From an uncultured Balneolaceae bacterium (lineage in GTDB: Bacteria; Bacteroidota; Rhodothermia; Balneolales; Balneolaceae): a DNA stretch of 64,000 nt. Location: assembly GCA_913057825.1 (NCBI GenBank), contig CAJXOW010000007.1, forward strand, positions 906-64,905. The letters run 5' to 3'. The position numbers and the translations under genes were made by a program. Below, piece by piece: positions 6,099-60,586 of this stretch. The notes under the pieces are model-generated. The model was not told the origin of the DNA and searched no databases. It saw only the letters and a list, made by a program, of their open reading frames with translations. Numbering within the stretch: the first letter of the stretch is position 1; every line of letters starts with the position of its first letter.

Positions 6099-6199
6099 AG
6101 ATTATCAGCTTCACCATTTATGATTAAGATCTCACATATAATACACTCGGCTTATCACCTTAATTGCGTGGAGCCTGGAGCTTGGAGCCCCTTATTCAA

Positions 6200-36442: not shown

Positions 36443-36471
36443 CATCAAGGTCGTCATGAACGACCTTGATG
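36443..36471 (+). other. 12-bp hairpin directly abutting the tyrA stop codon
   Basis: CATCAAGGTCGT, CATGA, ACGACCTTGATG. No T-tract follows. Confidence 0.6.
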
Positions 36472-36650
36472 GCTCCATGCTCCAGGCTCCAAGCAACTAC
36501 TGCTTGCAACAGTATAATTAGGAATCAGCACCTAAATATAGTTCAGTCTAATAGTCTTTTTATAAAGACAAGCTCTCGACCATAATATGATTTTTTACTC
36601 GAGTTAACACTTCAGGCGTTGCGTGGAGCTTGGAGCATGGAGCTTGGAGC
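36472..36650. repeat. Heptad-arm palindromic element X1
   Basis: 5' arm GCTCCAT GCTCCAG GCTCCAA GC. 3' arm GC GTGGAGC TTGGAGC ATGGAGC TTGGAGC. 21 of 23 positions pair, around a 126-nt AT-rich interior. The element fills the tyrA/ferritin convergent spacer. Confidence 0.75.
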
Positions 36651-36653
36651 TTT

Positions 36654-37184
36654 TTACTCATTAGCATTCATTTCGTCTCCACCGTCTTCTTCCTCGCCGG
36701 TGCGCTGCGCGAGTTCCTGGTCCAGCATATACAGCCCGCCGCCGTCTCCGTCTATTAATTTGAGCCGGTCCAGTATCTCATTAACGGCATCTTCCTCTTC
36801 GACTTGCTCATCTATAAACCAATTCAATAAGGTCTGCAGCGGATAATCGTTCTCTTCACGTGCCAGGTCGTACATCTCATGAATCCGCTTCGTGATATAC
36901 TGCTCATGTTCGAGGGCCTGCTCAAAAGCGTCAATGGGACTATCGATATCCACGTCCGGTTTTTCCAGTTCCTTGAGCTCCACTTCGCCATCCCGACGGA
37001 TAATGTGATTGTAAAACTTCATTGCATGCTCAATTTCCTCCTCCCACTGCATGCGCATCCAATGGGCCATGCCGGGATAGTTTTCGGTTTCGCACCACCC
37101 TGAAATGGCCAGATAGATATAGGCGGACTGAAACTCGGCTTGAATCTGATCGTTAATAGCGTCTAAAACTTTTTGCTTAATCAT
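36654..37184 (-). CDS. Ferritin (non-heme, Ftn-type)
   Basis: The ferritin-like di-iron ligand pattern (E...ExxH...E...QxxE) is visible. 176 aa with an acidic tail. Confidence 0.85.
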   Translation of the reverse strand: MIKQKVLDAINDQIQAEFQSAYIYLAISGWCETENYPGMAHWMRMQWEEEIEHAMKFYNHIIRRDGEVELKELEKPDVDIDSPIDAFEQALEHEQYITKRIHEMYDLAREENDYPLQTLLNWFIDEQVEEEDAVNEILDRLKLIDGDGGGLYMLDQELAQRTGEEEDGGDEMNANE

Positions 37185-37332
37185 AAAAGGCGTCTCTTGT
37201 TTAAATGATTAAATACGGTTCAATGGGGATTGCCCAATTTAGCCGACACCTCTGGTATTCGGCTATGCTTCTCAGCAAAATTCAACTTACAAAATTTATG
37301 CTTTAAAATGAATGTGAATAAGGGGGCGCCTT

Positions 37333-37474
37333 GCCCGGATGACACCCGCTTCTGTGTAAAATTTTATATGTGTTCCTTTCTTTAATTGGTTTTTTGGACA
37401 GAGAACTTTGACGATATGGAGTAGAAATATTTTTCTAAAGGAAAATTTTACGCAGAAGCGGGTGTCATCCGGGC
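37333..37474. repeat. Family-1 palindromic element, copy A
   Basis: 33-bp arms GCCCGGATGACACCCGCTTCTGTGTAAAATTTT / AAAATTTTACGCAGAAGCGGGTGTCATCCGGGC, with one T:G position. The 76-nt interior aligns to copies B and C. Confidence 0.8.
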
Positions 37475-37690
37475 TGATTACGTTTTTTGCCTGGCGAAGT
37501 GACTAATCATTCAATATCGAAATAAACTAATTTTATGGTCTTCCGGACTTGTGCCTCCGGATTTCATTTCTTGGGAAACGCTCCATTTTCAAATGTTATT
37601 CAAGCGATGCACTTTTCGCTGTCCTTCATTGATCTTTCTGCATACCAATTCACATGGGGAATACTGGCTGAAACGCATAAAGTTATTTGA

Positions 37691-39808
37691 CTAATCCTTG
37701 CCGCTCTGTATCGTCCGTGGTTCATTCCCATGGCCGGAACTGATCAAAAAATGTTTCCACTCTGTAAGCTCTTCCACCATTTGATGATGACGTTCTCTTT
37801 GAGAAGCATATTTAAGCTGACTGATGAGCTGGTTTGCCACAGAATCCTCCCTTAAGTACATTAGTCTTCTTGCTACGCGTGCGAATGTATTGAAATTCAG
37901 CAGGGTAATATCGGACGAGTCGACCCCGGCTGCGTATCGGTCCAACACTTGCCATGTTCCACGATTTATCACACGGTTCAATACTATGGATTTGAGCGGG
38001 CCCGGAATGGTATCAAAACGTTGAGGAGAAGGCGACATTTTACGATATATTATATCGGTCGTGAGCGCCCAGGTAGATGAATCTTTACGTAATGTTTTGG
38101 CTCGCTTATGCAGAGTGTACTCGAGGGCATTCTCGGAAAAGTTGGCATCCGCAATTCGGAGGACAGCCGGGAAGTAACGATTCGCCTTCAGCAGCGTATC
38201 AACTCGTGCGGATGATGTAAGCACTCGTCGGGCGTTTCCCTGTTGCAGCTGGTGATAGGCCCACTCGCTCCACAGGCGCAGGTCGGGACATCGAGGATTG
38301 CAGGCCGACATAATTACATCCCGTGCTTTTGCAGTATCTCCTTCGGCTAACCGGAACCGATAGCGATCCCACGCCTGTTCGGACTTGGTTTGAGTGTGGG
38401 GACAGCGCTTTTCGAACAGGGATGGAATGCTGAATAGTGCAGATCGACGGGCCCGGTCGATCGAATCAACCGGCACCGTTTCCAGATGCCGGTGCCACCC
38501 GGCTACCAGCGAATCGATCGGTTCGGGATAGGAAGCCTGAATATCGGCTGTTCGATAGAACTTTTTCAAATGGTCGATCTCGAAATTACGCAGCAGGTGA
38601 CGAATAAAGGATCCCATAGTTACGTAGTTCACCGTCTGTCGCCCCCCATAAAAGCCGGTAAAGGATAGTGAGTTTTTGATTTGTTCGGCCGGGGGATACG
38701 GTTGTTCGGCGGCCACCAACTGATCGACCGTTGAATAGGAGGACTCGTTTCCGGCAACGGCCACCGCCAATCCTTCCACCATTCCAATGTTCCAGCTAGC
38801 GTTCAGCAAGCGGTTGCCAAACGGCTTGGCCAGCACGTGCACCATTTCGTGTTTCAGGCTTGCCGACAACTGGGGATATGCTATGTGCAGCTGGTCCTGT
38901 TTTAGCCATACCGGCACGTAACTGGTGAACTTAGCCCCGACCAGTCGTTTTTTCTGCCAGGGATGCGCGTAGATATAGCTTTCGATGCCCGGGGCAAATT
39001 GAGAGGCCTCTACCTCCAGGGTGTTCGCAATGTCCCGAAAATAAAACTCGTGTCGAAGTTTGTAATACTCTGCTTGTTGCTGTTCTACAAGAGAGGAGTC
39101 ATAATAAATTTCAAAATGACCGGAGGATTGGTGTCCGCCGAGCTCTTGTTGAATCGCTGCGTTGGGTCGAACCAGCCCCATCTCGGTTAAATTGAAGTAC
39201 CCCAGTATCAATCCCGCAGCCGCCAGCCACGTCAGGTACCGGGCCGAAGCAGAAGTCCCGTAATCCGTGAAAAACCAGAAGAGCATGCCCCACAAGAGGG
39301 TTATCCCCCGAAAATAAACCAACGTGATCTCAAGAGGAAGCACTTCATCGTATATCGGACCCGGCCAGTATCCCCAGATATGGTTGTAGAAAAAGACTTG
39401 AGGAAAGGAATAAAACTCTATGAGAAACTCGCCTATCGCAATTGCCAGTACCACTAAAATAGCCCAAACCCCCGGCATTTTCGTGTTCAACCGCCGAAAC
39501 AAACGCACCAGCGCATAAGCAAGGAAGATGCTGACGGAAGGAACAAACACCCAGAACCCAAGTCCGTCGATGCTGAAACACCCGGCCCATAGATCTTTTA
39601 TCAAAAGTGGAACAGCCGCCAGGTATACGAGGAAAAGCACCCACAGGAGACGCTGAATATCCTTTTGACCGGAAAGGATCGATTTACGTCCATATCCTAT
39701 GGCCACGAAACTTCCCAACAGCCCTGCCAGGAAAGCCGACTCAAAATGCAGGTGCCCCACCAACGGAATCCAGGCGATGGCAACTCCCAGGAGCACGGCG
39801 ATGCCCAT
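37691..39808 (-). CDS. Polytopic membrane protein with a zincin-like HEMVH motif and a helical-repeat C-terminal region
   Basis: Many N-terminal TM helices, then ...SLKHEMVHVLAKPFG... The start was moved to MGIAVLLG (39808) because the upstream extension runs through repeat X2. Confidence 0.6.
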   Translation of the reverse strand: MGIAVLLGVAIAWIPLVGHLHFESAFLAGLLGSFVAIGYGRKSILSGQKDIQRLLWVLFLVYLAAVPLLIKDLWAGCFSIDGLGFWVFVPSVSIFLAYALVRLFRRLNTKMPGVWAILVVLAIAIGEFLIEFYSFPQVFFYNHIWGYWPGPIYDEVLPLEITLVYFRGITLLWGMLFWFFTDYGTSASARYLTWLAAAGLILGYFNLTEMGLVRPNAAIQQELGGHQSSGHFEIYYDSSLVEQQQAEYYKLRHEFYFRDIANTLEVEASQFAPGIESYIYAHPWQKKRLVGAKFTSYVPVWLKQDQLHIAYPQLSASLKHEMVHVLAKPFGNRLLNASWNIGMVEGLAVAVAGNESSYSTVDQLVAAEQPYPPAEQIKNSLSFTGFYGGRQTVNYVTMGSFIRHLLRNFEIDHLKKFYRTADIQASYPEPIDSLVAGWHRHLETVPVDSIDRARRSALFSIPSLFEKRCPHTQTKSEQAWDRYRFRLAEGDTAKARDVIMSACNPRCPDLRLWSEWAYHQLQQGNARRVLTSSARVDTLLKANRYFPAVLRIADANFSENALEYTLHKRAKTLRKDSSTWALTTDIIYRKMSPSPQRFDTIPGPLKSIVLNRVINRGTWQVLDRYAAGVDSSDITLLNFNTFARVARRLMYLREDSVANQLISQLKYASQRERHHQMVEELTEWKHFLISSGHGNEPRTIQSGKD

Positions 39809-39838
39809 TGCTTTATAGTTAAACCAGGGGGCGTTTTT

Positions 39839-40015
39839 GGAATTAGAAATTTTGAATTTTGAATTATGAATTATAGATATGATGAGAAGTATACATAGAT
39901 TCTGGGGCATTCTTCTTATAGATATTGCCTGCAATCAATATAATAACAGATGCGAATACTAACCCCTACTGCAATTTCATGACGTGATCAATTCAAAATT
40001 TGAAATTTCTAATTC
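39839..40015. repeat. Heptad-arm palindromic element X2
   Basis: Arms GGAATTAGAAATTTTGAATTTTGAATT / AATTCAAAATTTGAAATTTCTAATTC. 24 of 26 positions pair. The arms show 7-nt periodicity (GAATTTT units). Interior of about 124 nt. Confidence 0.75.
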
Positions 40016-40057
40016 TCGAGCGGCAGCGAAGGGCAGGGAAAGCGCTCCGGTCGCGAA

Positions 40058-40909
40058 TTACCGCTGGAACATGGTGGTCAGTATAAACCAGATGTTTTCT
40101 TTTCTTTCCATGAGTCGTCGTTTGAAGTAGGGGAACCACATGGTTCCGTAGGGCACGTAGATGCGCGAATTATATCCATCTTCCGTCAGGTCTTCCATCG
40201 TGGTTTGCCGGAGGCCATAGAGCATCTGGAATTCAAAGCGTGACGGTCCGATGTTGTTTCTATCGGTATAGTCGAGCGTCCATTTAATGAGTTCGTCATC
40301 GTGGGTCGCGATGCGGGGATAGCTGGTCTTTTCCAGCAGCACTTCCGCATATTCCTTAAACGCATCGCGTATGGCGTTCATATTCTGCAGGGCGATGCGC
40401 TCGGGCTCGCTGTAAGCTCCTTTACAAAGTCGTACATCAGCCCCCATATCCGCCAGGTCCCGCACATCCTCTTTCGTGCGATGCAAATAGGCTTGCAGGA
40501 CGATTCCCACATGCTTGCCGTACTTCTTATAGGCCTGTTTGAAGATATCGATCGTAGCCTGCGTATAATCCGAGCCCTCCATATCGATACGGACAAAGTT
40601 ATTGGTTTTCTGCGCTTTATCCAGAACTTTGAACAAATTATCCCGGCAAAGTTCATCATCGATATCAAGACCCATCATAGTCAACTTCACCGAAATGGTT
40701 GAATCGAGGCCGGCTTCATCGATCTTATCCAGCAGAATCCGGTAGGTTTCGGCCGACTCCGACGCCATGGATTTATTGTCCACGTTTTCTCCCAGCTTAT
40801 CGAGCGTCACCTGGATATTTTTGTCATTCAACTCTTGTATACGAGGCAGTGCATGGTCAAAATCTTCACCGGCCACAAACTTACGCGCCAGAAAAAACGG
40901 TAGTTTCAT
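40058..40909 (-). CDS. Proline dehydrogenase
   Basis: The 283-aa monofunctional PRODH barrel pattern (FVAGEDFDHAL...VTLDKLGE...VRIDMEGS...IVLQAYL...VRLCKGAY) is recognisable. Confidence 0.85.
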   Translation of the reverse strand: MKLPFFLARKFVAGEDFDHALPRIQELNDKNIQVTLDKLGENVDNKSMASESAETYRILLDKIDEAGLDSTISVKLTMMGLDIDDELCRDNLFKVLDKAQKTNNFVRIDMEGSDYTQATIDIFKQAYKKYGKHVGIVLQAYLHRTKEDVRDLADMGADVRLCKGAYSEPERIALQNMNAIRDAFKEYAEVLLEKTSYPRIATHDDELIKWTLDYTDRNNIGPSRFEFQMLYGLRQTTMEDLTEDGYNSRIYVPYGTMWFPYFKRRLMERKENIWFILTTMFQR

Positions 40910-41045
40910 TCGATCTATCCCTTCCTTGGTATTCAGCGGTTCATTCCACTCTTAAAATATAAAAAATCCACTCCTCCTCCACCCCTTTTGAAACTTGTCC
41001 CAAAATTTTCCGTATAGATTTAATGTGAGCAGCCTTCGTTGTCGG

Positions 41046-41195
41046 CAGGCCGGCTCCTCGTTCTAAAAGTTTTCTCACGAATATCGACAAAATCCGGGTT
41101 AAGCGCCATTAACGAAACGGTAATCACTTATACTCGCGATTTTCAAGAAAACTTTAATACTTCGGATCCGGCCTGCCGACAACGATGATATGCTA
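41046..41195. repeat. Family-2 palindromic element, copy D (most divergent)
   Basis: 18-bp perfect arms TCGTTGTCGGCAGGCCGG / CCGGCCTGCCGACAACGA. Core ends CTCCTCGTTCTAAAAGTTTTCT ... AGAAAACTTTAATACTTCGGATCC resemble those of E, F and G. Confidence 0.7.
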
Positions 41196-41233
41196 TTTAC
41201 ATTAAATCAAGTTCAATTAAACAGGAGTTTGTT

Positions 41234-42190
41234 ATGAGTCGAAGAAGATATTTTATTCAACAATCGGTAATGGTGATGGTCGCGGCGTTGTTGTGGACGA
41301 TGACCGTGTGTGTAAATTCCGTGCGTGCCCAGGCGGATCAACCGGATTCAGACCGACCGGTGTACCGAACGGAATCGTTTTCCATTGACACCCCGGCCGA
41401 GCTGAACGTGCATACCTCAGGCGGATTTATCAATGTGAGCGGCCGGGAAGGATCGGATGTGACGGTTAAAGTATATGTGCAGAAAGACGGCCAATATTTG
41501 TCGACGGATCAGACCGATCTGAAGAATTATGATCTGACGATCGAACACGAAGGATCGAAGATTGACGTCCGTGCCAAAAGCAAGGGGTTCTGGGGAAATA
41601 ACAGCATGTCGGTTTCTTTTGTCGTCACGGTCCCCCGTCAGACGAGCAGCGAGCTGCATACCAGCGGTGGATCAATCACTACTAAAAATCTCGAGGGACA
41701 GCAGCAAGTACGCACGAGCGGCGGACATCTGACCCTCACGGATATTGAAGGCAAGACCGAGGCCCGCACGTCCGGAGGCCATATCAACTTGTCGAACGTC
41801 ACCGGCGACACGGAAGCGCGTACCAGCGGCGGACATATCCAGGTGGACGGCCTCACTGGCAACTCCAGCTTGCGAACGTCGGGCGGTCATATCACGCTCA
41901 ACGACATTGCAGGTACGATCAATGCCAGAACCTCCGGCGGCCATATAAACGCTGCAATAGTGGAAGTCGGCGATCATGTTGACCTGAAAACCAGCGGCGG
42001 CAACGTCCACGTCACTGTTCCCGGCGGTAAAGGCTACGACCTGGACCTGGAAGGCAACATGGTCAGCTCCAAGCTCGAAAACTTCAACGGATCGGTCGAG
42101 CGAGATGAAGTCAAAGGTACGGTCAACGGCGGCGGACCGCGCGTTTATGCCAAAACTTCCGGCGGGATGGTTAAGGTTGACTACAAATAA
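41234..42190 (+). CDS. DUF4097-type beta-strand repeat protein (putative adhesin)
   Basis: Signal peptide plus repeated (A/V)RTSGGHI(N/T/Q)L units, at least 8 copies. Confidence 0.75.
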   Translation: MSRRRYFIQQSVMVMVAALLWTMTVCVNSVRAQADQPDSDRPVYRTESFSIDTPAELNVHTSGGFINVSGREGSDVTVKVYVQKDGQYLSTDQTDLKNYDLTIEHEGSKIDVRAKSKGFWGNNSMSVSFVVTVPRQTSSELHTSGGSITTKNLEGQQQVRTSGGHLTLTDIEGKTEARTSGGHINLSNVTGDTEARTSGGHIQVDGLTGNSSLRTSGGHITLNDIAGTINARTSGGHINAAIVEVGDHVDLKTSGGNVHVTVPGGKGYDLDLEGNMVSSKLENFNGSVERDEVKGTVNGGGPRVYAKTSGGMVKVDYK

Positions 42191-42209
42191 TTCTTCGTTG
42201 CTTTGCCGG

Positions 42210-42361
42210 GTAAGCCCCGGATGACACGCGCTTCGGCGCAAAATTTCATATGTGTTGCTTTGTTTGCCGGTTTTGAAGACTTGAGAACTTTGACGGTATG
42301 AACTCGTATTTAAGACTATAGGGAAAATTTTGCGGCGAAGCACGTGTCATCCGGGGCTTAC
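42210..42361. repeat. Family-1 palindromic element, copy B
   Basis: 38-nt arms GTAAGCCCCGGATGACACGCGCTTCGGCGCAAAATTT... / ...AAAATTTTGCGGCGAAGCACGTGTCATCCGGGGCTTAC with 2 mismatches. The interior is nearly identical to copy C. Confidence 0.8.
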
Positions 42362-42443
42362 AAACAACTTCATACTGACCTTGATACCTCAAATTTATTG
42401 GGGGGGAAAACTAGTTTGGAAGTAGTACCCGGGTCATATGATG

Positions 42444-44795: not shown

Positions 44796-44899
44796 AATAT
44801 CCCTCTTTTTAAGCCTATCTGGAAAAATAAAACTTCATTTCAGTGTAATAACTTATATAGGATACATCTCTTTCTCAATTAGATGGGTCATAATTGATT

Positions 44900-45036
44900 C
44901 CTGATGACACGCGCTTCGGTGCCAAATTTTATACGTGTTGCTTTGTTTGCCGGTTTTGAAGGCCTGAGAACTTTGACGGTGCGAACTCGTATTTAAGACT
45001 ATAGGGAAAATTTTGCGCCGAAGCGCGTGTCGGTTG
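44900..45036. repeat. Family-1 palindromic element, copy C (outer 3' arm partly deleted)
   Basis: Arms GACACGCGCTTCGGTGCCAAATTTT / AAAATTTTGCGCCGAAGCGCGTGTC. Same orientation as copy B. Confidence 0.8.
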
Positions 45037-45224
45037 AAAAGTATGGGTTGCTTTTTTACCTCTCGACAAGGACTGGCTTGAAACCAAGGAGGAACATTAA
45101 GGGATTAACCAAATAATTTGGATACACTCTTTGGAAATCGCGTTCGTTAGTCCTATTCTTTATAGTTTGTTCCGGATCATATTTGTTCGCCGCAATTTGA
45201 ATTTTCAGTTATTGTAAACCGCGT

Positions 45225-48041
45225 ATGTCTCAGTCGAAATCTGCCGCTCATGCCAAGGCCAAGGAAAAAGCCAAAGAGATTGAAGATCGCCCGATCAAGG
45301 TCAAAGGTGCCCGGGTCCACAATCTGAAAAATATTGACGTGGAACTGCCCCGCAACCAGATGACGGTGGTGACGGGCGTGTCGGGATCCGGAAAGACGAG
45401 CCTGGCGTTTGACACGATTTATGCCGAGGGACAGCGTCGCTACGTCGAGAGCCTGTCGAGCTATGCCCGACAGTTTCTTGAGCGAATGGACAAGCCTGAC
45501 GTTGATTTCATGCAGGGCATCTCCCCGGCGATGGCGATTCAGCAGAAGACCACCTCCAACAACCCGCGATCGACGGTGGGGACGACGACGGAGATCTACG
45601 ACTATGTCCGATTGCTCTTTGCGCGGGTCGGCAAGACCATTTCGCCGGTTTCGGGGGAAGAGGTCAAAAAAGACTCGCCCGAAACGATCATCGACGACTT
45701 GATGGAGCAGGAGGAAAAGACCAAGTTCTACGTGCTCTTCCCGATCCCGCATCACGAGGAGCGCGATATGGAGGAAGAGCTGGACGTCCTTAAAGAGAAG
45801 GGATTCACCCGCCTGCTGCAGGTCGAGGATGAAGAAATGGTGGATATCACTCGCGATGAGGTGGATCCCGATAATATCGATCGTGAGAACTGGCGCGTGC
45901 TGGTCGACCGGCTGGCCGTGAAGCACGACGATCAGACCCGCAGCCGGATGACGGAGTCGGTCGAAACGGCGTTTCGCGAGGGACATGATCGCTGCTCTAT
46001 CAAATACCGGGACGGCGAAGAGAAGTATTACAGTCAACGGTTCGAGCGCGACGGTATGGAGTTCATGGAACCCAGCCCGCGGATGTTCTCCTTTAACAAC
46101 CCCTACGGGGCATGCGAGACGTGCGAAGGGTTCGGTCGGGTGACCGGCATCGACGAGAACAAGGTGATTCCCGATCCGCAGCAAACCATTCGCAACGGGG
46201 CCATCGCACCGTTCGACTCCAAGAAGTTCAGCCGACACCTGCGGGACCTGATTAAAGTATCGGCCCGGTATGAATACCCGATTGACACCCCGTACAAACA
46301 GCTGTCTGACGAGTACAAAGAGGTCATCTGGAACGGTAAGGACGAATACGATGGCATCTATCCGTTCTTTAAGAAGATCAAAAGCAAATTTTACAAGGTG
46401 CACATGCGCGTGTTTTACGCGCGGTACCGCGGATACAGTCGCTGTCCCGATTGCGACGGCTACCGGGTGCGACCCGAGGCGTTGAATGTGAAGGTCGGGG
46501 ATGCGCACGTGGGTGAGGTCACCGAAATGTCGATCGGGAAGGCGCGCGAGTTTTTCGAGGAGCTGGAGCTTTCCGAATTCGAGAAGGAAGTGGCCGAGCA
46601 GATATTGTACGAGATCCGCAAGCGGTTGAAATATCTTGACGAAGTGGGACTCGAGTATTTGACCCTCGACCGACAGACGCGGACCCTCAGCGGGGGCGAG
46701 TCGCAGCGGATCAGCCTGGCGAATTCGCTGGGAAGTTCGTTGATCGGGAGTCTGTACGTGCTTGACGAGCCGACGATCGGGCTGCACCCGCGGGATAACG
46801 ACCGGTTAATCAATATTTTGAAGTCGCTCCGCGATATCGGCAACACGATCCTGGTGGTCGAACACGATCCGGAAATGATTCGCCAGGCCGACAACATCCT
46901 GGATCTGGGGCCTTTTGCCGGAGTCCACGGCGGCGAGGTCGTCTTTGAAGGGTCGTACGATGATCTGTTGGAAGCGAACACCCTTACTGGCAAGTACCTG
47001 AGCGGACGCAAGAAAATTCCGGTCCCCGACGAGCGCCGCGACGGCAGTGACAAAAGCATCACCCTTAAAGGCGCCACCGAACACAACCTGAAGCACATCG
47101 ACGTCGAGTTTCCGCTGAACAAGCTGGTGTGCGTGACCGGCGTGAGCGGCTCCGGCAAATCGACCCTGATTCACGATACGCTGTTTGCCGCCATCCAGGA
47201 CGAACTAGGGACCTACAAAGATGAAGTCGGCCGACATAAAGCGATCGAGGGACTGGAGCATATCGATAACGTGGAGATGGTCGATCAGAGCCCGATCGGT
47301 CGGTCGAGTCGCTCGAATCCCGCCACCTACACCAAGGCCTTCGACGGGATCCGGGACCTGTTCGCCAATACGCGTCAATCGAAGATCATGGGATACACGC
47401 CCGGACACTTCTCCTTCAACGTCCCCGGCGGACGATGTGAAACGTGCGAAGGCGAGGGCGTACAGACCATCGAGATGCAGTTTCTGGCCGACATCGAACT
47501 CACCTGCGAGGCCTGCGGCGGGACCCGCTACCGCAAGGAGATTCGGTCCGTCAAATACCGGGGCAAGAGCATCACCGATGTGCTCGACATGACCGTCAGT
47601 GAGGCTATCGAATTTTTTGTCGACGAGAAATCGATCACCAACAAGCTCCAGCCGCTCGAAGACGTGGGACTCGGTTACCTGAAACTCGGTCAGAGCGCCA
47701 CCACGCTGTCCGGCGGCGAGGCCCAGCGCGTGAAGCTTGCCAAGTTCCTGACCAGCACCAGCAGCGATCATACCTTTTACTTCTTCGACGAGCCGACCAC
47801 CGGCCTGCACTTCGAGGATATCAACCGGCTGCTCGCCTCCTTCAAGGAGCTCGTCGACAACGGTCACTCGGTCATCATCATCGAGCACAACCTCGATGTA
47901 ATTAAATCGGCCGACTGGATCATCGACCTGGGACCCGAAGGCGGCTACGGCGGCGGCAAGGTCGTCTGCACCGGCACGCCCGAAGAAGTGGCGCAAAACG
48001 AAGACAGTCACACGGGACGCTACCTGCAGAAAGTGTTATAA
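45225..48041 (+). CDS. uvrA: Excinuclease ABC subunit A
   Basis: Two ABC modules ([14 protein letters not shown] and [14 protein letters not shown]), zinc-finger CxxC pairs and LSGGE signatures. 938 aa. Confidence 0.97.
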
Positions 48042-48076
48042 AGCTTGAAGTAGAGCCTGACTTCAGATTAATTATC

Positions 48077-48334
48077 CTACTTATCATTATGGGGCGGAAT
48101 TTGGCTCGTATGCCAAACTGCTTCGATATAAATAGTTTCTTCTATAAGGCGGTAAGCAATCCTGTAATTACCTACAAGCAACTCCCGGAACGACTCCTCG
48201 CTAAATTCCGTGACCCCCCTTCCCAACCGGGGATTATTTTGCAATATATCTGTCTTACTTATGAGTTCTGAGCTCCATCTTGCAGCAGCTTCCAAATCAT
48301 CCCGGGCTATATAATCAACAAATTCATTGACCAT
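48077..48334 (-). CDS. ParE/RelE-family toxin-like protein, orphan and probably N-terminally decayed
   Basis: ...FVDYIARDDLEAAARWSSELISKTDILQNNPRLGRGVTEFSEESFRELLVGNYRIAYRLIEETIYIEAVWH fits the ParE fold pattern. The same frame upstream reads DIKWSRQAIR (the usual first strand) but has no canonical start codon. There is no room for an antitoxin gene. Confidence 0.55.
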   Translation of the reverse strand: MVNEFVDYIARDDLEAAARWSSELISKTDILQNNPRLGRGVTEFSEESFRELLVGNYRIAYRLIEETIYIEAVWHTSQIPPHNDK

Positions 48335-48421
48335 TCGAATGGCTTGCCGCGACCATTTTGATATCCCCCGTTAAGTTGATAGGTTGAAGTATTAGCTGTT
48401 ATTAAGCCAGAGAAACCAACC

Positions 48422-50593
48422 ATGGCACTTACTGTTCGACATCGTGCTTTCCGATGGTTTTTGTTAACCGGGGCATGGTGCATCTGCCTGCTGTTTGCGG
48501 CTCAACAACTGAACGCCCAGCAACGCATCGGCGGTCCCTACGAGGCCGATTCTTCGACAGTGTTATTGCTGCATTTCAACGGGGATTATCAGAATGAAGT
48601 GGACGCCACAGCCGATCCCCGTCCGCATGGGAATACCTCATTTGAAAAATTAGACAGTGCGGGTGTATTCGGTCAGCAGTTACGACTTGACAATGATTCT
48701 CCTGCCGATAAAAGCCACCTGCAAGTACCCGATACCTCTACATTGGATCTGACGGGTTCGTGGACCATGGAAGCGTGGGTTCTTTTTTTTAGCTTTTGCC
48801 CTACTCAGGATTGCTTACCAAAATACCCTCGAATCTTGTTCAAACCCGGCGACGTCGACACCTCCCGATACTATCTTTCCAATTATTTTATCAATGCTTT
48901 CAGCACAAGAAGGAGTTGGTCTACCGGATATTACAGTCCGTCCGCCGGTACGTGGGTTGAAATCAGATCTCCCTATAACATTCTTGGAATCGGGGAGTGG
49001 TATCATGTCACCTTCATCCGGGATACCTCCAAAAAAATGATCGTCCAGATGATCCATCAAAATGCATCCGACCCCGGACGCCTGCCCGGCTACGAATCGG
49101 ATTCCCTTGAATTGCTGCATCTGGAAGCGTTTGACTATGAGGAGGCGGGACAACTGGGCAGCCCTCAAATCAGCAGCCAGCCCTTGTTTATCGGAGCCAC
49201 CCCTCAAAATGACACCTTATACGGCAACCTGGACGGATGGCTGGACGAGATTCGCATCAGTAATACCGTACGGAATTATCGGGTTCCCCCGTTGATTACA
49301 GGGGTTACGGAGCTGGAAAATCAAACAGCGGATCATGACTATCAGATTGAAGCGACCATCGAAACGATCGGCGATAATACGATAGCAGCAGCCGAGCTGC
49401 ACTACCGGGTGGATGAGGGGGGTTGGCAGACTTTGAGGATGTCCGAGGAAACCGATAACCGGTACACCGCCCGCATCCCCTCCCAGCCGGTCGGCTCCCG
49501 CATGACGTACTGGGTCGAGGCCCGTACCGGCGACGGACAACAAACCCGTCAGCCGTCCACCGCTCCCACCGATTCGGTCTATCAATTTGGCGTGTGGAGC
49601 GACAGCACGCGCGTCCTGCACCTGCCGTTTGACGAAGGCAGCGGAAATCCCGTGGATCAATCGTTTGCGGAATCCGAAATCACTTTTCACAGCAACGCAT
49701 CCGGTCCCACATACGCGGACGGTGACGCCGGAGAAGGCGACCAGGCGATGGTGTTCAACGCAACCAACTCCACCTGGCTGGAGGTTTCGTCACCCTTCCA
49801 CGACCTCACCAACTTCACCCTCGAATTCAAATTCATGGCCCGTGACTCGCTTCCCCTGCAGGACACCCGACTTATAGCCAAAGGGGATCAATCGACCCTC
49901 TATTACAGCAACTACCAGATCTATTTCGACCCGAACGGGGCGGTTCGTCCGGCGATCTATGCCGCGGATAACGGGCTTGATCCCTGCGGAGAATTTACCG
50001 GGGGATGTCTGCTGATGGATGGTACGAATGAACACATCGAAGCAGAAACCTGGTATCGTGTTCAACTGGGTATCCGGGAACCCGAGGGACTGGTGGCCGA
50101 CACCGGCCGCATTTTTGCGCATTTATTGGAGGTTGCTTCGGGAGATACGATTGCCAAACGCGTCCACCCGGTGGATGCCGGTGCCAGACCCAATGCGAAT
50201 TCGCTCATGATCGGAGGAACCGGGGGATCCGAACCTTACTTTAACGGCCTGATCGACGACCTTTCCCTCTACAACTACATACCCTCGAGAATATTCACCG
50301 ACACGCCGGCCCGTACCGACCCGCTGCCCCGACAAATTACCTTATCCCGGAACTATCCCAACCCCTTCAATCCAACCACTACCCTTAGATTCAGTTTGCC
50401 TCGGGCCTCCCATGTTCAACTGACGGTTTATAATTCTATCGGACAAAAGGTATCCACCCTTATACGACGAATGATGCCTGCTGGGAACCATTCTACCACC
50501 TTCAACGCATCTGGTTTGTCTTCCGGCGTCTATATCTATCGGTTGAAGGCAGGGGATCATACTGAGTCCAAAAAAATGCTCTTGTTGCAATAA
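48422..50593 (+). CDS. Secreted LamG-domain protein with a T9SS C-terminal sorting domain (paralog of 1530-5831)
   Basis: The mature N-terminus AQQRIGGPYEADSSTVLLLHFNGDY parallels AQLPQAGGPYTPDSNTVILMHFDGAD in the larger protein. LamG endings DEIRISNTVR and IDDLSLYNY. Tail NYPNPFNPTTTLRFSLPRASHVQLTVYNSIGQKV...GVYIYRL. Confidence 0.85.
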   Translation: MALTVRHRAFRWFLLTGAWCICLLFAAQQLNAQQRIGGPYEADSSTVLLLHFNGDYQNEVDATADPRPHGNTSFEKLDSAGVFGQQLRLDNDSPADKSHLQVPDTSTLDLTGSWTMEAWVLFFSFCPTQDCLPKYPRILFKPGDVDTSRYYLSNYFINAFSTRRSWSTGYYSPSAGTWVEIRSPYNILGIGEWYHVTFIRDTSKKMIVQMIHQNASDPGRLPGYESDSLELLHLEAFDYEEAGQLGSPQISSQPLFIGATPQNDTLYGNLDGWLDEIRISNTVRNYRVPPLITGVTELENQTADHDYQIEATIETIGDNTIAAAELHYRVDEGGWQTLRMSEETDNRYTARIPSQPVGSRMTYWVEARTGDGQQTRQPSTAPTDSVYQFGVWSDSTRVLHLPFDEGSGNPVDQSFAESEITFHSNASGPTYADGDAGEGDQAMVFNATNSTWLEVSSPFHDLTNFTLEFKFMARDSLPLQDTRLIAKGDQSTLYYSNYQIYFDPNGAVRPAIYAADNGLDPCGEFTGGCLLMDGTNEHIEAETWYRVQLGIREPEGLVADTGRIFAHLLEVASGDTIAKRVHPVDAGARPNANSLMIGGTGGSEPYFNGLIDDLSLYNYIPSRIFTDTPARTDPLPRQITLSRNYPNPFNPTTTLRFSLPRASHVQLTVYNSIGQKVSTLIRRMMPAGNHSTTFNASGLSSGVYIYRLKAGDHTESKKMLLLQ

Positions 50594-50837
50594 AAGGTTG
50601 ATTCATCTGCATACATGAACACAAATAGGTCACACCTTTTCCAATAAGTCAGCAAATACTATGGATTCATGGGATATCATGTCCATATGCCCACTTCTCC
50701 TATTTCTTACTAAAAGAGGTCTTTGCTCTCTACCCTGCTTGAAAAAATCCCCTGAATTATCAAAATTATATCTATAGGGTTGCCTGTTAGGCTTGTCGAC
50801 TTACTAATTGATCCAAGATCCGGGAGCGTGACATAAA

Positions 50838-51266
50838 ATGGGAAAGAGTTCAACCTGCATGACCGTAGTTTTATTAATTGGCGCAATTATGCTCGGGCTT
50901 ACCACCTGCAATGGCGTAAGCTGGGCCCAATCTACTCCGGGGATTACATTTGAGACAGTGGAACCGGTATATATACATGCTCAAAGTCACGGTACTCCAT
51001 TGACTACCTACTCCTATAAATCGGTTGGCTACGCCGTACTCTCGCCCGATCAGGTGTTGGAGGCGGCCTGGATTTACGGGGTCAAGCCCGAAAAGGTGGC
51101 TTTTCAAGCGATGTGGTTCTACCGGCGCAACGATCTGCAGAACATAGCAGGCGTGGAATCGGTCCGCGACGCCGTCGAAAAATTAAATCACCTTCAGCTA
51201 CAAGAGGCCAAAACCCGTCACGCCGAACCTATGGAAGGAAGCGGACCCCGCGACTCTGTCAGATAA
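50838..51266 (+). CDS. Hypothetical secreted protein
   Basis: 142 aa with a signal peptide or lipobox-like LGLTTCNG. No family recognised. Confidence 0.45.
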   Translation: MGKSSTCMTVVLLIGAIMLGLTTCNGVSWAQSTPGITFETVEPVYIHAQSHGTPLTTYSYKSVGYAVLSPDQVLEAAWIYGVKPEKVAFQAMWFYRRNDLQNIAGVESVRDAVEKLNHLQLQEAKTRHAEPMEGSGPRDSVR

Positions 51267-51315
51267 CCAGCTTTGGTTTTATTGAAACCGGATGAAATGA
51301 TACTTTTTATCGTTT

Positions 51316-52764
51316 TTACTCGATTCGGTCAAACTCTTCCTTGACTTCTTCGTCGGGTCCCTCGCCCAGCAGGCTCACCAGCAGGATCGCGGCGGTCCCC
51401 AACAGAAAGCCCGGCAGGATTTCGTACACATCGAAGAGTCCGCCGGATAACTGTTTCCAGACGATCACGGTTACGGCCCCGGTCAGTATCCCGGCCATGG
51501 CGGCGTTGCGGGTGATGCGGCGCCAGAACAGGCCGAAGAGCACCACGGGTCCGAAGGAGGCCCCGAAACCGGCCCAGGCGTAGGCGACCAGGTTCAGCAC
51601 CATGCTGTCGGGATCGGCGGCGATGGCAACGGCGATCAGGGCGACCGCAATCACCGACCCGCGTCCGATCCAGACGAGTTCTTTGTCCCCCGCTTCTTCT
51701 CTGAAGAGCGCCTTGTAGAAATCTTCGGCAATCGCGCTCGAGCAGACCAGCAGCTGGGAGTCGACCGTACTCATGATGGCCGACAGTATTCCCGCCAGCA
51801 GCACGCCGGCGACCCATGGATTGAACTGTATCTGGGTAAGCTCGATAAAGACCTTTTCGGCATCCTGCAGCGGGGCGTCGGCAAAAAATCCGATACCCGA
51901 AAATCCGACGAACACCGATCCCAGGATCCCGAAGATCATCCACGTCATGCCGATCAGCCGGGCCTTGGGCACAATTTTCTCCGAGCGGATCGCCATAAAC
52001 CGGGCCAGGATGTGCGGCTGACCGAAGTACCCGAGTCCCCAGGCCGCCAGCGAGATAATGCTAATCACCGACATCCCCGAAAAGATATCGATGTACTCAA
52101 TATCCACTTTGGCCGCCAGTCGAACCGTTTCGTTCCAGCCGCCCAGGTCATAGATCGTCATCACCGGCACGATCAGCAGCGCCATAAACATGAGCACGCC
52201 CTGTACAAAGTCTGTCCAGCTCACCGCCATAAATCCGCCGAGAAACGTGTACGAAACAATCACCAACGCCCCGATAGCCAGCGCCCAGTAGTAATTGAGT
52301 CCGAAGCTGCTTTCAAACAGTTTGGCTCCGCCGACCAGTCCCGACGAGGTGTAGATCGTAAAGAAAACCAAAATCACCACAGCCGAAACCACGCGCAGCA
52401 GCCGAGAAGAGTCGCGAAAACGATATTCAAAGAAATCGGGCAGGGTCAGCGAATCGTTCGCCGCATAGGTATAGGAGCGCAGTCGTCGCGCCACAAACTG
52501 CCAGTTCAGGTAAGCGCCGATCACGAGTCCGATGGCAATCCAACTCTGGCTCATACCCCCGGCATAGAGCGCGCCCGGCAATCCCAGCAGCAGCCACCCG
52601 CTCATATCCGATGCCCCGGCGCTCAGGGCCGCCACGAAGCTGTTCAATTGTCGTCCGCCGAGAATATAATCCGACAGGTTCTCGGTGAGGTGGTAGAAAA
52701 GCATACCCACCCCCAGCATTCCGACAAGATACACCACAAATGTCACCAGCACCGGTACATTCAT
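51316..52764 (-). CDS. putP: Sodium:proline symporter (SSS family)
   Basis: 482 aa with about 13 TM segments. The N-terminus (YILGGRQLNSFVAALSAGASDMSGWLLLGLPG) is typical of PutP. Confidence 0.85.
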   Translation of the reverse strand: MNVPVLVTFVVYLVGMLGVGMLFYHLTENLSDYILGGRQLNSFVAALSAGASDMSGWLLLGLPGALYAGGMSQSWIAIGLVIGAYLNWQFVARRLRSYTYAANDSLTLPDFFEYRFRDSSRLLRVVSAVVILVFFTIYTSSGLVGGAKLFESSFGLNYYWALAIGALVIVSYTFLGGFMAVSWTDFVQGVLMFMALLIVPVMTIYDLGGWNETVRLAAKVDIEYIDIFSGMSVISIISLAAWGLGYFGQPHILARFMAIRSEKIVPKARLIGMTWMIFGILGSVFVGFSGIGFFADAPLQDAEKVFIELTQIQFNPWVAGVLLAGILSAIMSTVDSQLLVCSSAIAEDFYKALFREEAGDKELVWIGRGSVIAVALIAVAIAADPDSMVLNLVAYAWAGFGASFGPVVLFGLFWRRITRNAAMAGILTGAVTVIVWKQLSGGLFDVYEILPGFLLGTAAILLVSLLGEGPDEEVKEEFDRIE

Positions 52765-52924
52765 GACTTCCGCTCCGGTCTTTGTTTAAGATAGGACCAG
52801 ATGCAAAGCGCCAACACAATAATCATCGGTGCCAGCAGCCAAATCCAAGTGGGGAGCGTTAATGAAGTCGGGTGCATTTTATATGGCTTATTGGTTGTTA
52901 TGTTGGTGGTTGCTTTTAAGGAAA

Positions 52925-53079
52925 GCTCGAGGCTGGAGGCTCGAAGCTCGAGGCGGCTTATGGCCTTTAAACTTCATTTGTGGCTGTATATTTATCGAGA
53001 TAACAAGCATTCTAATTTAGCCGTGGCTTACTTTAAAAAATCCAGCCATGCCTCGAGCCTCCAACTTCGAGCCTCGAGC
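52925..53079. repeat. Heptad-arm palindromic element X3
   Basis: 5' arm GCTCGAG GCTGGAG GCTCGAA GCTCGAG GC. 3' arm GC CTCGAGC CTCCAAC TTCGAGC CTCGAGC. The terminal units pair, but the two middle units are in swapped order. Interior of about 95 nt. Confidence 0.7.
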
Positions 53080-53091
53080 ATTGTTAGAAAT

Positions 53092-60585: not shown

Positions 60586-60586
60586 T

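What the first reader, a model, noticed from the sequence alone, without database searches (positions are those of the whole stretch)
36472..53079. Palindromic elements whose inverted arms are built from tandem 7-nt units of unrelated sequence
Three spacers carry 155-179 nt elements with 23-30 nt inverted arms and a 95-126 nt AT-rich interior. Each arm is a run of 3-4 heptamers:
- X1 (36472-36650): GCTCCAT/GCTCCAG/GCTCCAA opposite GTGGAGC/TTGGAGC/ATGGAGC/TTGGAGC.
- X2 (39839-40015): GAATTAG/AAATTTT/GAATTTT/GAATT opposite its complement.
- X3 (52925-53079): GCTCGAG/GCTGGAG/GCTCGAA/GCTCGAG opposite CTCGAGC/CTCCAAC/TTCGAGC/CTCGAGC, with the two middle units in swapped order.

The heptamer sequences differ between loci, but the 7-nt periodicity, the inverted layout and the spacing are shared. 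I cannot align the interiors to one another. I do not recognise this architecture as any described repeat class. Iteron-like protein binding arrays in inverted pairs, or slippage-generated arms kept complementary by intrastrand repair, are both possibilities.
Basis: seen in the sequence. Interest (0 to 1): 0.68.

Follow-up and report, generated by a model that had tools for sequence, protein, structure and literature searches.

The report
Heptamer-armed hairpin repeats between genes

Summary
X1, X2 and X3 are exactly where and as described. They are not isolated. This Balneolaceae genome (3.68 Mb) holds 439 period-7 arrays, against 7 or fewer for any other period from 4 to 12. The arrays fall into seven word families and form at least 131 pairs. 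Pairs are almost always convergent (131 vs 4) and of one family (123 vs 8). Arms have 4-5 units, interiors a median of 106 nt, and elements sit about 20-30 nt past stop codons.

The "kept complementary" idea fails. Arms of one element match no better than arms of different elements, unit order within arrays is random, and mismatches show no G-U bias.

Arms and interiors assort independently, and orthologous spacers in a congener carry different elements.

The genome's only PF05635 (23S-rRNA-IVS protein) gene lies between inverted GATTTAA heptamer arrays. In related genomes 20 of 32 PF05635 genes are spanned by inverted repeats, against 0 of 150 control windows, and 19 of those 20 have 7- or 8-nt periodic arms.

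Best reading: these are gene-less derivatives of IVS-type hairpin cassettes. The closest published precedent is the inverted GGGAATC heptamer pairs of Xanthomonas. How they spread and what they do remain inferred.

The parts
36443..36471 (+). Short perfect hairpin (CATCAAGGTCGTC-ATG-AACGACCTTGATG) directly after the tyrA stop codon (36440-36442). X1 starts at its 3' edge.
   Evidence: tyrA identified
36472..36494 (.). X1 5' arm: GCTCCAT GCTCCAG GCTCCAA GC (GCTCCAN family). The inverted repeat extends inward to 36502.
36503..36612 (.). X1 interior, 110 nt. It is unique in the genome and folds no better than shuffles (z -0.6 and -0.2). It keeps weak remnants of the TATA-core left half (GCTTG..CAGTATAAT).
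36613..36650 (.). X1 3' arm: heptamers GTGGAGC TTGGAGC ATGGAGC TTGGAGC at 36623-36650. It ends 3 nt before the ferritin stop codon (36654-36656, minus strand).
39840..39874 (.). X2 5' arm: GAATTAG AAATTTT GAATTTT GAATTAT GAATTAT (GAATTTT family).
39875..39989 (.). X2 interior. On the minus strand the element lies between the proline dehydrogenase stop (40058) and the start of the next gene (about 39808).
39990..40015 (.). X2 3' arm: AATTCAAAATTTGAAATTTCTAATTC, 92% complementary to the 5' arm.
52925..52954 (.). X3 5' arm: GCTCGAG GCTGGAG GCTCGAA GCTCGAG GC (GCTSGAR family).
52955..53049 (.). X3 interior, 95 nt, upstream of putP (minus strand). It folds no better than shuffles.
53050..53079 (.). 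X3 3' arm: GC CTCGAGC CTCCAAC TTCGAGC CTCGAGC. The middle units are swapped relative to the 5' arm.
53080..53106 (.). Small hairpin (ATTGTTAGAAA-TTTAC-TTTCTAACAAT) abutting X3. It repeats the arrangement seen at X1, with an ordinary hairpin next to the element.
5950..6188 (.). Fourth heptamer-armed element in the window, with mixed arms. The left arm is GCTCGAG GCTGGAA GC followed by a TATA-core left half (TTATTCCGG..GTGTATATGG). The right arm is GCG TGGAGCC TGGAGCT TGGAGC. A perfect 20-bp hairpin is nested in the interior at 6045-6094.

Best explanation
X1-X3 are gene-less, miniature members of a class of hairpin (foldback) DNA cassettes. The terminal inverted repeats of this class are blocks of 4-5 degenerate 7-nt words.

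Full-length members carry a small PF05635 gene in the loop. PF05635 is the '23S rRNA intervening-sequence protein' (S23p), an Avd-like four-helix bundle. This genome keeps one such full copy and at least 131 gene-less ones in seven word families.

The elements lodge just past stop codons and beside ordinary terminator hairpins, and they are replaced or lost at the same spacers over evolutionary time.

Shown:
- the architecture, its numbers and its rules;
- independence of the two arms;
- modular assortment of arms and interiors;
- turnover between congeners;
- the physical association of PF05635 genes with 7/8-nt periodic inverted arms.

Inferred:
- each arm is a row of binding sites read word by word, with two degenerate positions per word, by a trans-acting protein, PF05635 being the candidate;
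- the gene-less copies derive from, or are maintained by, such cassettes;
- in read-through RNA the 25-35-bp stems would be RNase III substrates, as in rRNA intervening sequences.
For: Genome-wide rules:
- There are 439 period-7 arrays against 7 or fewer for other periods.
- Neighbouring arrays are convergent 131 to 4 and of the same family 123 to 8. The median interior is 106 nt, IQR 89-128.
- 90% of arms have 3-6 units, with a peak at 4-5.
- Elements are enriched between convergent genes and depleted between divergent ones (chi-square p = 1e-4). They lie a median of 16-30 nt from the neighbouring genes.

Word-level constraint without arm-to-arm copying:
- About five of the seven positions in each word are near-invariant; the rest vary freely.
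- There is a position-specific unit preference. For example, the innermost GCTCCAC occurs in 40 of 64 arrays.

Modularity:
- The same 58-nt core (GTATTCSAGC..TGTATATACA..GCTSGAATAC) occurs with GCTCCAN, GCTSGAR or GGTGAAR arms.
- Core identity is the same within and between arm families (0.69 vs 0.68).

Turnover:
- X1 is absent from the tyrA-ferritin spacer of the congener G001.
- Other orthologous spacers hold elements of different families in the two species. In one, a single arm and the flanking terminators are conserved while the interior is replaced.

PF05635 link, tested here:
- The only PF05635 gene of the genome (C21:17027-17335; Pfam E = 4.9e-21; PDB 2RLD E = 5.6e-23) lies between inverted GATTTAA arrays 496 nt apart with 96% complementary arms. 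The cassette starts at the upstream gene's stop codon.
- About 25 nt beyond one arm is shared with five gene-less GATTTAA elements.
- The two PF05635 genes of G001 each have heptamer arrays beside them. One is spanned by an inverted GCCGGAA-type pair. The other has a GCTSGAR array on one side only. Both word types also occur as arms of its gene-less elements.
- 20 of 32 PF05635 loci in Balneolales relatives have a spanning inverted repeat with arms of 19-32 nt (one of 71 nt), against 0 of 150 control windows. 19 of those 20 arms are 7- or 8-nt periodic.

Literature:
- Xanthomonas has 70-75 convergent inverted pairs of 4-unit GGGAATC arrays next to upstream ORF ends (PMC4692102).
- The Coxiella IVS has a 28-bp terminal stem, tandem GACAGAT heptamers and an S23p ORF, and is excised by RNase III (PMC4990558).
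Against: - Six of the seven arm families in this genome have no cognate PF05635 gene in the assembly.
- PF05635 copy number does not track array number: 1 gene for 439 arrays here, against 19 genes in a relative with far fewer of the array types counted.
- No interior shows a remnant of a PF05635 ORF; the best tblastn E-value is 0.013 over 33 x 118 comparisons.
- 82 of 118 interiors are unique sequence, so descent from a common cassette is not demonstrated for X1-X3 themselves.
- No transposase, nuclease or recombinase partner was found. Y1/RAYT and GxxExxY are absent.
- There are no target-site duplications.
- No mobility event was observed directly.
- 12 of 32 PF05635 loci lack a clear spanning repeat.
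Confidence: 0.5

Rival explanations
1. In-situ growth without mobility. Ordinary hairpins at gene ends, such as terminator stems, expand on both arms by 7-nt replication slippage. On this view heptamers are simply the favoured slippage unit, and the 'families' are convergent outcomes.
For: - In Rhodohalobacter sp. 8-1 the array (TCGTGAG)n begins inside the tyrA stop codon and is built from the gene's own last bases.
- The same tyrA 3' spacer carries heptamer hairpins with related words but different unit numbers and loops (6 to about 200 nt) in several Rhodohalobacter-related genomes.
- Mrazek et al. 2007, as summarised in PMC4679880, found heptamers to be the commonest long simple repeat in bacteria and proposed polymerase slippage.
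Against: - Identical neighbouring units are not enriched over shuffled order, and arrays are more heterogeneous than the family pool.
- Arm length peaks at 4-5 units instead of decaying from the minimum.
- Seven discrete word families are each used at 17-126 arrays.
- The same words flank PF05635 genes.
- Orthologous spacers carry unrelated elements, both arms and interior, in congeners.
Confidence: 0.15
2. RNA-level function selected in mRNAs. On this view the arms pair in read-through transcripts to form 3'-end stabilisers, terminators or RNase III processing sites, and that pairing is what selection maintains.
For: - The position just downstream of stop codons resembles that of REP elements.
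- Stems of 25-35 bp are RNase III-sized.
- Intervening sequences with the same layout are cut by RNase III (PMC4990558).
Against: - There are no compensatory changes between arms.
- Transition mismatches show no G-U over A-C bias on the sense strand (38 vs 41).
- Ordinary terminator-like hairpins often lie between the stop codon and the element, so much transcription may end before it.
- There is no U-tract and no terminator-scan signal.
- Interiors are unstructured.
Confidence: 0.12
3. Host DNA-level sites. On this view the arms are iteron-like arrays bound by a chromosomal protein (nucleoid protein, gyrase or regulator) and kept for genome organisation, not as selfish DNA.
For: - Word positions are constrained while the arms are independent, as expected for sites read separately.
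- Orientation and length rules are strict.
- REP/BIME elements in enterobacteria bind gyrase and IHF (established knowledge).
Against: - Seven unrelated words would need several specificities.
- The families are species-specific: RATTWAT occurs 148 times here and 0 times in the congener and 29 other relatives.
- Elements are absent or replaced at orthologous spacers.
- Both points argue against a conserved host function.
Confidence: 0.1
4. Conventional MITEs. On this view the elements are deletion derivatives of DDE-transposase insertion sequences whose terminal inverted repeats happen to be heptad-structured.
For: - Size is 113-335 nt, with a median of 179.
- They have terminal inverted repeats, are intergenic, occur in many copies and show presence/absence between species.
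Against: - There are no target-site duplications.
- Most interiors are unrelated.
- No longer element with the same ends encloses a transposase. The only gene found enclosed by a matched pair of arrays less than 500 nt apart is PF05635.
- Arms and cores assort independently.
Confidence: 0.06

Closest known systems
Inverted pairs of GGGAATC heptamer arrays in Xanthomonas campestris and X. axonopodis (Rehm et al. 2015, PMC4692102)
   Same: - Tandem 7-nt units with two degenerate positions.
- Mostly 4 units (28 nt) per arm.
- Two arrays in convergent orientation on opposite strands (70-75 pairs per genome).
- About 90% are intergenic.
- They lie much closer to the upstream ORF end (about 28 nt) than to the next gene, and are rare between divergent genes.
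- The repeat type is usually preserved between species while lengths differ.
   Different: - Xanthomonas has one G-rich word that can form G-quadruplexes; here there are seven unrelated words, none with G-runs.
- The tabulated Xanthomonas arms are 21-67 nt apart, against a median of 106 nt here.
- That paper does not link the repeats to any gene and offers no origin.
23S rRNA intervening sequences with an S23p / PF05635 ORF (Coxiella burnetii, Leptospira; PMC4990558)
   Same: - Terminal inverted repeats form a stem of about 28 bp.
- Tandem heptamers (GACAGAT x2-3, variable between strains) occur inside the element.
- A PF05635 four-helix-bundle ORF sits in the loop.
- The one full-length cassette in this genome and 20 of 32 in relatives have this layout.
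   Different: - X1-X3 carry no ORF and lie in protein-gene spacers, not in rRNA helix 25 or 45.
- The assembly has no 23S gene to inspect.
- RNase III excision is untested here.
STRR heptanucleotide repeats of heterocystous cyanobacteria, and TAACTGA repeats of Beggiatoaceae, cyanobacteria and Bacteroidetes (PMC4679880)
   Same: Abundant intergenic tandem heptamers, a sporadic lineage-specific distribution and several word families per genome.
   Different: - Those are described mainly as direct arrays.
- The TAACTGA repeats sit upstream of start codons, and only one inverted set was reported among 170 in 'Maribeggiatoa'.
- Here the inverted pair is the rule.
REP / BIME / REPIN elements with RAYT transposases (PMC3116915)
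   Same: - Hundreds of short palindromic intergenic repeats lie after gene ends.
- The doublet-in-inverted-orientation unit is about 100-180 nt.
- They are depleted between divergent genes.
   Different: - No Y1/RAYT gene is present in this genome or its congener.
- The arms are heptad arrays, not a single conserved palindrome.
- The interiors are unrelated.
Eukaryotic Foldback (FB) transposons (from general knowledge)
   Same: Long inverted arms are built from short tandem subrepeats, the middle is variable or absent, and many copies are non-coding.
   Different: FB elements are on a kilobase scale, are eukaryotic and produce target-site duplications. This is a resemblance of layout only.

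Membership tests
Inverted heptamer-array pairs (Xanthomonas type, PMC4692102) | Arms are tandem 7-nt units with a conserved core and degenerate positions | tested here: met
   Examples are GCT[CG]GA[AG], GCTCCAN and ATT[AT]AT[GA].
Inverted heptamer-array pairs (Xanthomonas type, PMC4692102) | Two arrays in convergent orientation on opposite strands, about 4 units each | tested here: met
   131 convergent vs 4 divergent pairs; the mode is 4-5 units.
Inverted heptamer-array pairs (Xanthomonas type, PMC4692102) | Intergenic, close to the end of the upstream ORF, rare between divergent genes | tested here: met
   358 of 439 arrays are intergenic. Elements lie a median of 16-30 nt from the neighbouring genes, and 12% are in divergent spacers against 17% background.
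Inverted heptamer-array pairs (Xanthomonas type, PMC4692102) | G-rich word able to form a G-quadruplex; arms 21-67 nt apart | tested here: not met
   No word has G-runs. The median interior is 106 nt and none is shorter than 20 nt.
IVS-type PF05635 hairpin cassette | Terminal inverted repeats forming a stem of about 25-30 bp that contains tandem heptamers | tested here: met
   for X1-X3; for the full cassette.
IVS-type PF05635 hairpin cassette | PF05635 (S23p) ORF in the loop | tested here: not met
   X1-X3 interiors are 95-124 nt with no ORF and no PF05635 remnant. The feature is met only by the single full copy at G000:C21:16960-17513.
IVS-type PF05635 hairpin cassette | Inserted in 23S rRNA helix 25 or 45 and excised from the transcript by RNase III | not testable with these tools
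   The assembly has no 23S rRNA gene. X1-X3 themselves lie between protein genes.
REPIN / REP with RAYT | A cognate Y1 (RAYT) transposase gene in the genome | tested here: not met
   PF01797 gives 0 matches in G000 and G001, while 15 of 31 relatives have it.
MITE of a DDE transposon | Target-site duplications flanking the terminal inverted repeats | tested here: not met
   Direct repeats at the flanks equal the cross-paired null (mean 3.42 vs 3.33; 12% vs 10% reach 5 nt or more).
MITE of a DDE transposon | Copies share an internal sequence and an autonomous parent with a transposase | tested here: not met
   82 of 118 interiors are unique. No transposase is enclosed by matching arrays.
Slippage microsatellite (LSSR / STRR) | Runs of identical neighbouring units, with length set by slippage | tested here: not met
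   The rate of identical neighbours equals the within-array shuffle and is below the family pool. Length peaks at 4-5 units.
Intrinsic terminator | Short-loop GC-rich hairpin followed by a U-tract | tested here: not met
   Loops are 95-124 nt. The terminator scan is not above shuffles and does not call X1-X3 as terminators.
Invertible promoter (inverton) | Inverted repeats flank a promoter upstream of a regulated gene, and both orientations occur in the population | tested here: inconclusive
   31% of elements lie between convergent genes, where no promoter is needed. The promoter scan is not above shuffles. Orientation polymorphism could not be tested.

The most novel reading that the evidence does not exclude
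Heptamer-armed hairpins may form one pan-bacterial class of exchangeable cassettes that settle at gene 3' ends and, in rRNA, appear as 'intervening sequences'. The cargo would be the pentameric Avd-like PF05635 protein, reading the 4-5 heptad words of each arm, perhaps one word per subunit. It would thereby promote copying, exchange or protection of the cassette. Gene-less miniatures such as X1-X3 would be serviced in trans. If so, this would explain the decades-old excess of heptanucleotide repeats in cyanobacteria (STRR), Xanthomonas and many other bacteria, and would give PF05635 a function outside diversity-generating retroelements.
Probability: 0.3. Interest if true: 0.85.

Novelty: new variant of a known kind. 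Interest (0 to 1): 0.6.

Why it matters
Heptanucleotide repeats are the commonest long simple repeats in bacteria and have had no accepted explanation since the 1990 STRR reports.

This genome is an unusually clean natural experiment. Seven unrelated words follow one architecture. This shows that the 7-nt period, the arm length of 4-5 units and the convergent orientation are the conserved features, not the sequence.

The statistics here rule out two easy explanations, recent slippage and selection for arm pairing.

The data independently tie the architecture to PF05635 genes in a new phylum. That gives a concrete, testable candidate partner and connects three literatures that have not been joined: Xanthomonas heptamer pairs, rRNA intervening sequences and Avd-like proteins.

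In practical terms, these elements occupy about 5% of the non-ORF DNA, and all palindromic families together about 15%. They break assemblies and inflate spurious ORF calls, as with the TTG-start ORF that runs into X2.

Tried and rejected
- Rfam search of the whole window at a permissive threshold: nothing on X1-X3. No tRNAs were found.
- Structured RNA in the interiors: rejected, because folding energies equal shuffles.
- Arm-to-arm copying or compensatory evolution: rejected.
- Recent slippage signature: rejected.
- Target-site duplications: none.
- RAYT/Y1 transposase: absent. GxxExxY nuclease: absent from G000 and G001. In relatives, its loci showed at most a weak spanning repeat with no clear periodicity.
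- Autonomous element with the same ends: the only gene enclosed by a matched pair of arrays less than 500 nt apart is PF05635. The other long-range pairs enclose ordinary genes.
- PF05635 remnants inside gene-less interiors: none significant. A tblastn hit on contig C34 came from an unrelated neighbouring ORF in one query locus, not from PF05635.
- Promoter and terminator scan of 36000-54000: not above shuffles.
- 23S rRNA IVS in this genome: not testable, because the assembly has no 23S gene.
- Strain polymorphism of X1: the one metagenome contig found is 100% identical, so it is uninformative.
- The built-in reversed-pattern control is invalid for that query, because the reversed pattern is a rotation of the same tandem repeat. 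Only the exact-match counts and the inverted pairing were used.
- The Elhai et al. 2008 paper on small dispersed repeats could not be read.

Full report
**1. The observation**

The three elements are exactly as described.
- X1 spans 36472-36650. It has three GCTCCAN units on the left and four NTGGAGC units on the right.
- X2 spans 39840-40015. Its arms are built from GAATTTT-type units and are 92% complementary, 124 nt apart.
- X3 spans 52925-53079. It has four GCT[CG]GA[AG] units per arm, 95 nt apart, and the two middle units are swapped between arms.

The repeat finder and Tandem Repeats Finder recover the arms and the period of 7 independently. X1 is 100% identical in a marine-metagenome contig; whether that assembly is independent of this genome was not established.

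**2. Context**

The window is C7:906-64905 of a 3.68-Mb, 138-contig genome with 47% GC. Relatives found through the tyrA protein are all Balneolaceae, and most are MAGs from saline habitats.
- X1 lies between convergent tyrA and ferritin. It starts right after a small perfect hairpin that follows the tyrA stop, and ends 3 nt before the ferritin stop.
- X2 lies between a proline dehydrogenase gene and the next gene on the same strand.
- X3 lies upstream of putP and abuts another small hairpin.

**3. It is a genome-wide system**

My scan of the whole genome gave the following.
- There are 474 inverted repeats with arms of at least 18 nt and loops of 30-260 nt, against 6 in a shuffled control. 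Loop length peaks sharply at 100-120 nt.
- 121 of them have period-7 arms. One has period 8, one has period 11, and none has any other period.
- Counted directly, period-7 arrays number 174 (strict) to 439 (relaxed), against 7 or fewer for any period from 4 to 12.
- The arrays fall into seven word families:

| Family | Arrays |
|---|---|
| RATTWAT | 126 |
| GCTSGAR | 104 |
| GCTCCAN | 78 |
| GAATTTT | 31 |
| GGTGAAR | 25 |
| GATTTAA | 22 |
| GCTSAAA | 17 |

- Arrays within 400 nt of each other are convergent in 131 cases and divergent in 4. They are of the same family in 123 convergent pairs and of different families in 8.
- Interiors have a median of 106 nt (IQR 89-128), and none is shorter than 20 nt.
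- Ninety of the 141 'unpaired' arrays still have partner units on the expected side.
- Arms have 3-6 units in 90% of cases, with a peak at 4-5.
- Strictly detected heptamer pairs take 0.66% of the genome and 4.7% of non-ORF DNA. All palindromic families together take 15% of non-ORF DNA.
- Elements are enriched between convergent genes (31% vs 17% background) and depleted between divergent ones (p = 1e-4). They lie a median of 16-30 nt from the neighbouring genes.

**4. What the arms are not**

*Not kept complementary.* Arms of one element are no better matched than arms from different elements of the same family: 0.921 vs 0.904, 0.932 vs 0.927, 0.888 vs 0.880. Left and right arm lengths are uncoupled once family is fixed (p = 0.58).

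*Not recent slippage products.* Neighbouring units are identical no more often than after shuffling units within arrays. They are identical less often than random draws from the family pool. The length distribution peaks at 4-5 units instead of decaying from the minimum.

*Not selected for RNA pairing.* In same-strand gene contexts, transition mismatches give G-U on the sense strand 38 times and A-C 41 times.

*Interiors are not structured RNAs.* Their folding z-scores run from -0.6 to +0.9. They have the GC content of ordinary spacers (38.6% vs 39.7%).

*No target-site duplications.* Flanking direct repeats equal the null.

*What is constrained is the word.* About five of seven positions are near-invariant and the rest are free, as in GCT-S-GA-R, ATT-W-AT-R and GCTCCA-N. 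There is also some position-specific preference; for example, the innermost unit is GCTCCAC in 40 of 64 GCTCCAN arrays.

**5. Modularity and turnover**

A 58-nt palindromic core, GTATTCSAGC..TGTATATACA..GCTSGAATAC, occurs in 19 strictly scored copies. It carries GCTCCAN, GCTSGAR or GGTGAAR arms, and looser matching also shows one copy with mixed arms. Core similarity does not follow arm family (0.69 within vs 0.68 between).

Many longer GC-type interiors keep only one half of this core. X1 and X3 show weak remnants of it.

The GAATTTT family has a genuinely homologous, oriented interior of 120-128 nt. RATTWAT interiors share nothing detectable. Overall, 82 of 118 interiors are unique in the genome.

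Among 30 relatives:
- The GCTSSAN pattern is abundant only here (304 hits) and in the congener G001 (30 hits).
- RATTWAT is confined to this genome (148 hits vs 0 in nearly all others).
- G001 lacks X1 at the tyrA-ferritin spacer.

For 15 G001 elements I examined the orthologous G000 spacer.
- In several cases both species carry a palindromic element there, but of different families.
- In one case the right arm and both flanking terminators are about 90% conserved while the left arm and interior are replaced.
- In one case the whole element is orthologous, with about 75% identical interior (L120).

These spacers therefore look like hot spots with element turnover.

**6. Wider family**

In a 530-kb sample of 80 other Balneolaceae genomes, period 7 is not generally enriched. 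The tyrA 3' spacer of Rhodohalobacter-related genomes is an exception. It carries heptamer hairpins with other words (TGAGTNN, GTGAAAA), some with short loops. One is a nested double set whose outer array starts inside the tyrA stop codon. TGAGTNN arrays, often in close inverted pairs, are spread over the Rhodohalobacter and Gracilimonas genomes searched. The built-in control of that search is invalid, as noted under Tried and rejected.

**7. Literature**

- Rehm et al. 2015 (PMC4692102) tabulated 183-186 GGGAATC-type arrays in two Xanthomonas genomes. Most have four units. 70-75 form convergent inverted pairs; the pairs in the part of their table I read are 21-67 nt apart. About 90% are intergenic, about 28 nt from the upstream ORF. 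This is the same architecture with one word and shorter interiors, and the authors did not explain it.
- MacGregor 2015 (PMC4679880) reviews heptamer repeats and the slippage proposal of Mrazek et al..
- The Coxiella IVS paper (PMC4990558) describes a 428-nt element with a 28-bp terminal stem, strain-variable tandem GACAGAT heptamers and an S23p ORF. RNase III excises it.
- PF05635 is regarded as Avd-like (PMC10053308).
- A full-text search for PF05635, S23p and related terms returned no paper whose title or abstract ties PF05635 to genome-wide heptamer hairpins.

**8. The PF05635 link**

Earlier notes of this scan from other phyla claimed that full-length copies of such hairpins carry a PF05635 gene. 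I treated this as a lead and tested it here.
- The genome has exactly one PF05635 gene, at C21:17027-17335 (genome search E = 1.4e-20; Pfam E = 4.9e-21; PDB 2RLD E = 5.6e-23).
- I had already flagged this 126-codon ORF, before seeing the lead, as the only gene enclosed by a matched pair of heptamer arrays less than 500 nt apart.
- It sits between inverted GATTTAA arrays whose 25-nt arms are 96% complementary and 496 nt apart. The cassette begins at the stop codon of the upstream gene.
- About 25 nt beyond one arm is shared at 75-77% identity with five gene-less GATTTAA elements.
- The two PF05635 genes of G001 each have heptamer arrays beside them. One is spanned by an inverted GCCGGAA-type pair; the other has a GCTSGAR array on one side only. 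Both word types also occur as arms of its gene-less elements.
- Across 32 PF05635 loci from 16 related genomes, 20 have a spanning inverted repeat with arms of 19-32 nt (one of 71 nt) and spans of 406-690 nt. None of 150 control windows has one. Nineteen of the 20 arms are periodic, 10 with period 7 and 9 with period 8.
- GxxExxY genes, a second cargo proposed by those notes, are absent from this genome and its congener. In relatives they showed at most one weak, non-periodic association.

**9. Interpretation**

*Shown.* There is a strict, word-independent architecture. The two arms are independent. Arms and interiors assort modularly. Elements turn over at gene-end spacers. PF05635 genes are strongly associated with 7/8-nt periodic inverted arms in this order.

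*Inferred.*
- X1-X3 are gene-less derivatives of, or companions to, such cassettes.
- Each arm is a row of 4-5 protein-binding words. The pentameric, basic, Avd-like PF05635 protein is the obvious candidate reader.
- Read-through RNA would be cut in the stems by RNase III, as in rRNA intervening sequences.

*Against.*
- Six word families have no cognate gene in this assembly.
- No interior shows an ORF remnant.
- No enzyme for mobility is known.
- No mobility event was seen.

I put about 0.5 on this reading. The rivals are in-situ slippage growth, RNA-level function, a host DNA-binding role and conventional MITEs. They are listed with their tests.

**10. Verdict**

The elements are a new, multi-word, long-interior variant of a known but unexplained kind, and I score interest as moderate to high.

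Noticed in passing
window 18793-18847 (-) and 31894-31954 (+): Two matches to the Rfam whalefall-1 RNA motif (43.8 bits, above the gathering score of 37, and 32.3 bits). Placing this orphan motif in a Balneolaceae genome may help to assign it a host lineage.
   Followed up: no
window 37333-37474, 42210-42361, 44906-45031: Three copies of another palindromic family. The arms are GACAC(G/C)CGCTTC..AAAATTTT and the conserved 76-78-nt interior contains GAGAACTTTGACGG.
   Followed up: partly
window 41036-41185, 56230-56396, 57925-58072, 60395-60601: Members of the most abundant palindromic families of the genome (116 and 59 copies). The conserved inner ends are TTGCTCGGAAACTTTTCTTCG / CCAGAAAATTTTAATGCTTCGGAACC. 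The GC-rich arms are (A)AACCGGGCGGCGGTTCC, and their outer parts are copy-specific yet complementary, up to 42 nt perfect elsewhere in the genome.
   Followed up: partly
window 54734-54901: A 168-nt near-perfect rod-like palindrome, CTAGGAGGCTGTCGGACTTTC..GAAAGTCCGGCAGCCTCCTAG. It belongs to an 11-copy family (cluster 6).
   Followed up: partly
window 5950-6188: A composite heptamer element with arms of two different families, GCTSGAR on the left and GCTCCAN on the right. It has a half TATA-core and a perfect 20-bp hairpin (6045-6094) nested in its roughly 200-nt interior.
   Followed up: yes
window 22767-22873: An inverted pair of GTTTCACGTGAAAC (parS-like palindromes) 73 nt apart.
   Followed up: no
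L064:4114-4374 (Rhodohalobacter sp. 8-1, downstream of tyrA): A nested double heptamer hairpin. The outer (TCGTGAG)n array starts inside the tyrA stop codon. The inner (GTGAAAA)n arms are about 85 nt apart.
   Followed up: partly
L140, L144, L147, L150, L155, L157, L158, L162, L167 (PF05635 loci of related Balneolales): About half of the PF05635 cassettes in relatives have 8-nt periodic arms, such as (GTAGGATG)n and GTTTAGGN. This genome has almost no period-8 arrays (2).
   Followed up: partly
whole genome G000: The assembly contains no 23S rRNA gene, although completeness is estimated at 100%. rRNA intervening sequences therefore cannot be examined.
   Followed up: no
window 37691-39934 (-): The mechanical ORF list extends this gene with a TTG start into X2. 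The real start is probably the ATG near 39808. Heptamer elements can inflate ORF calls in this way.
   Followed up: partly
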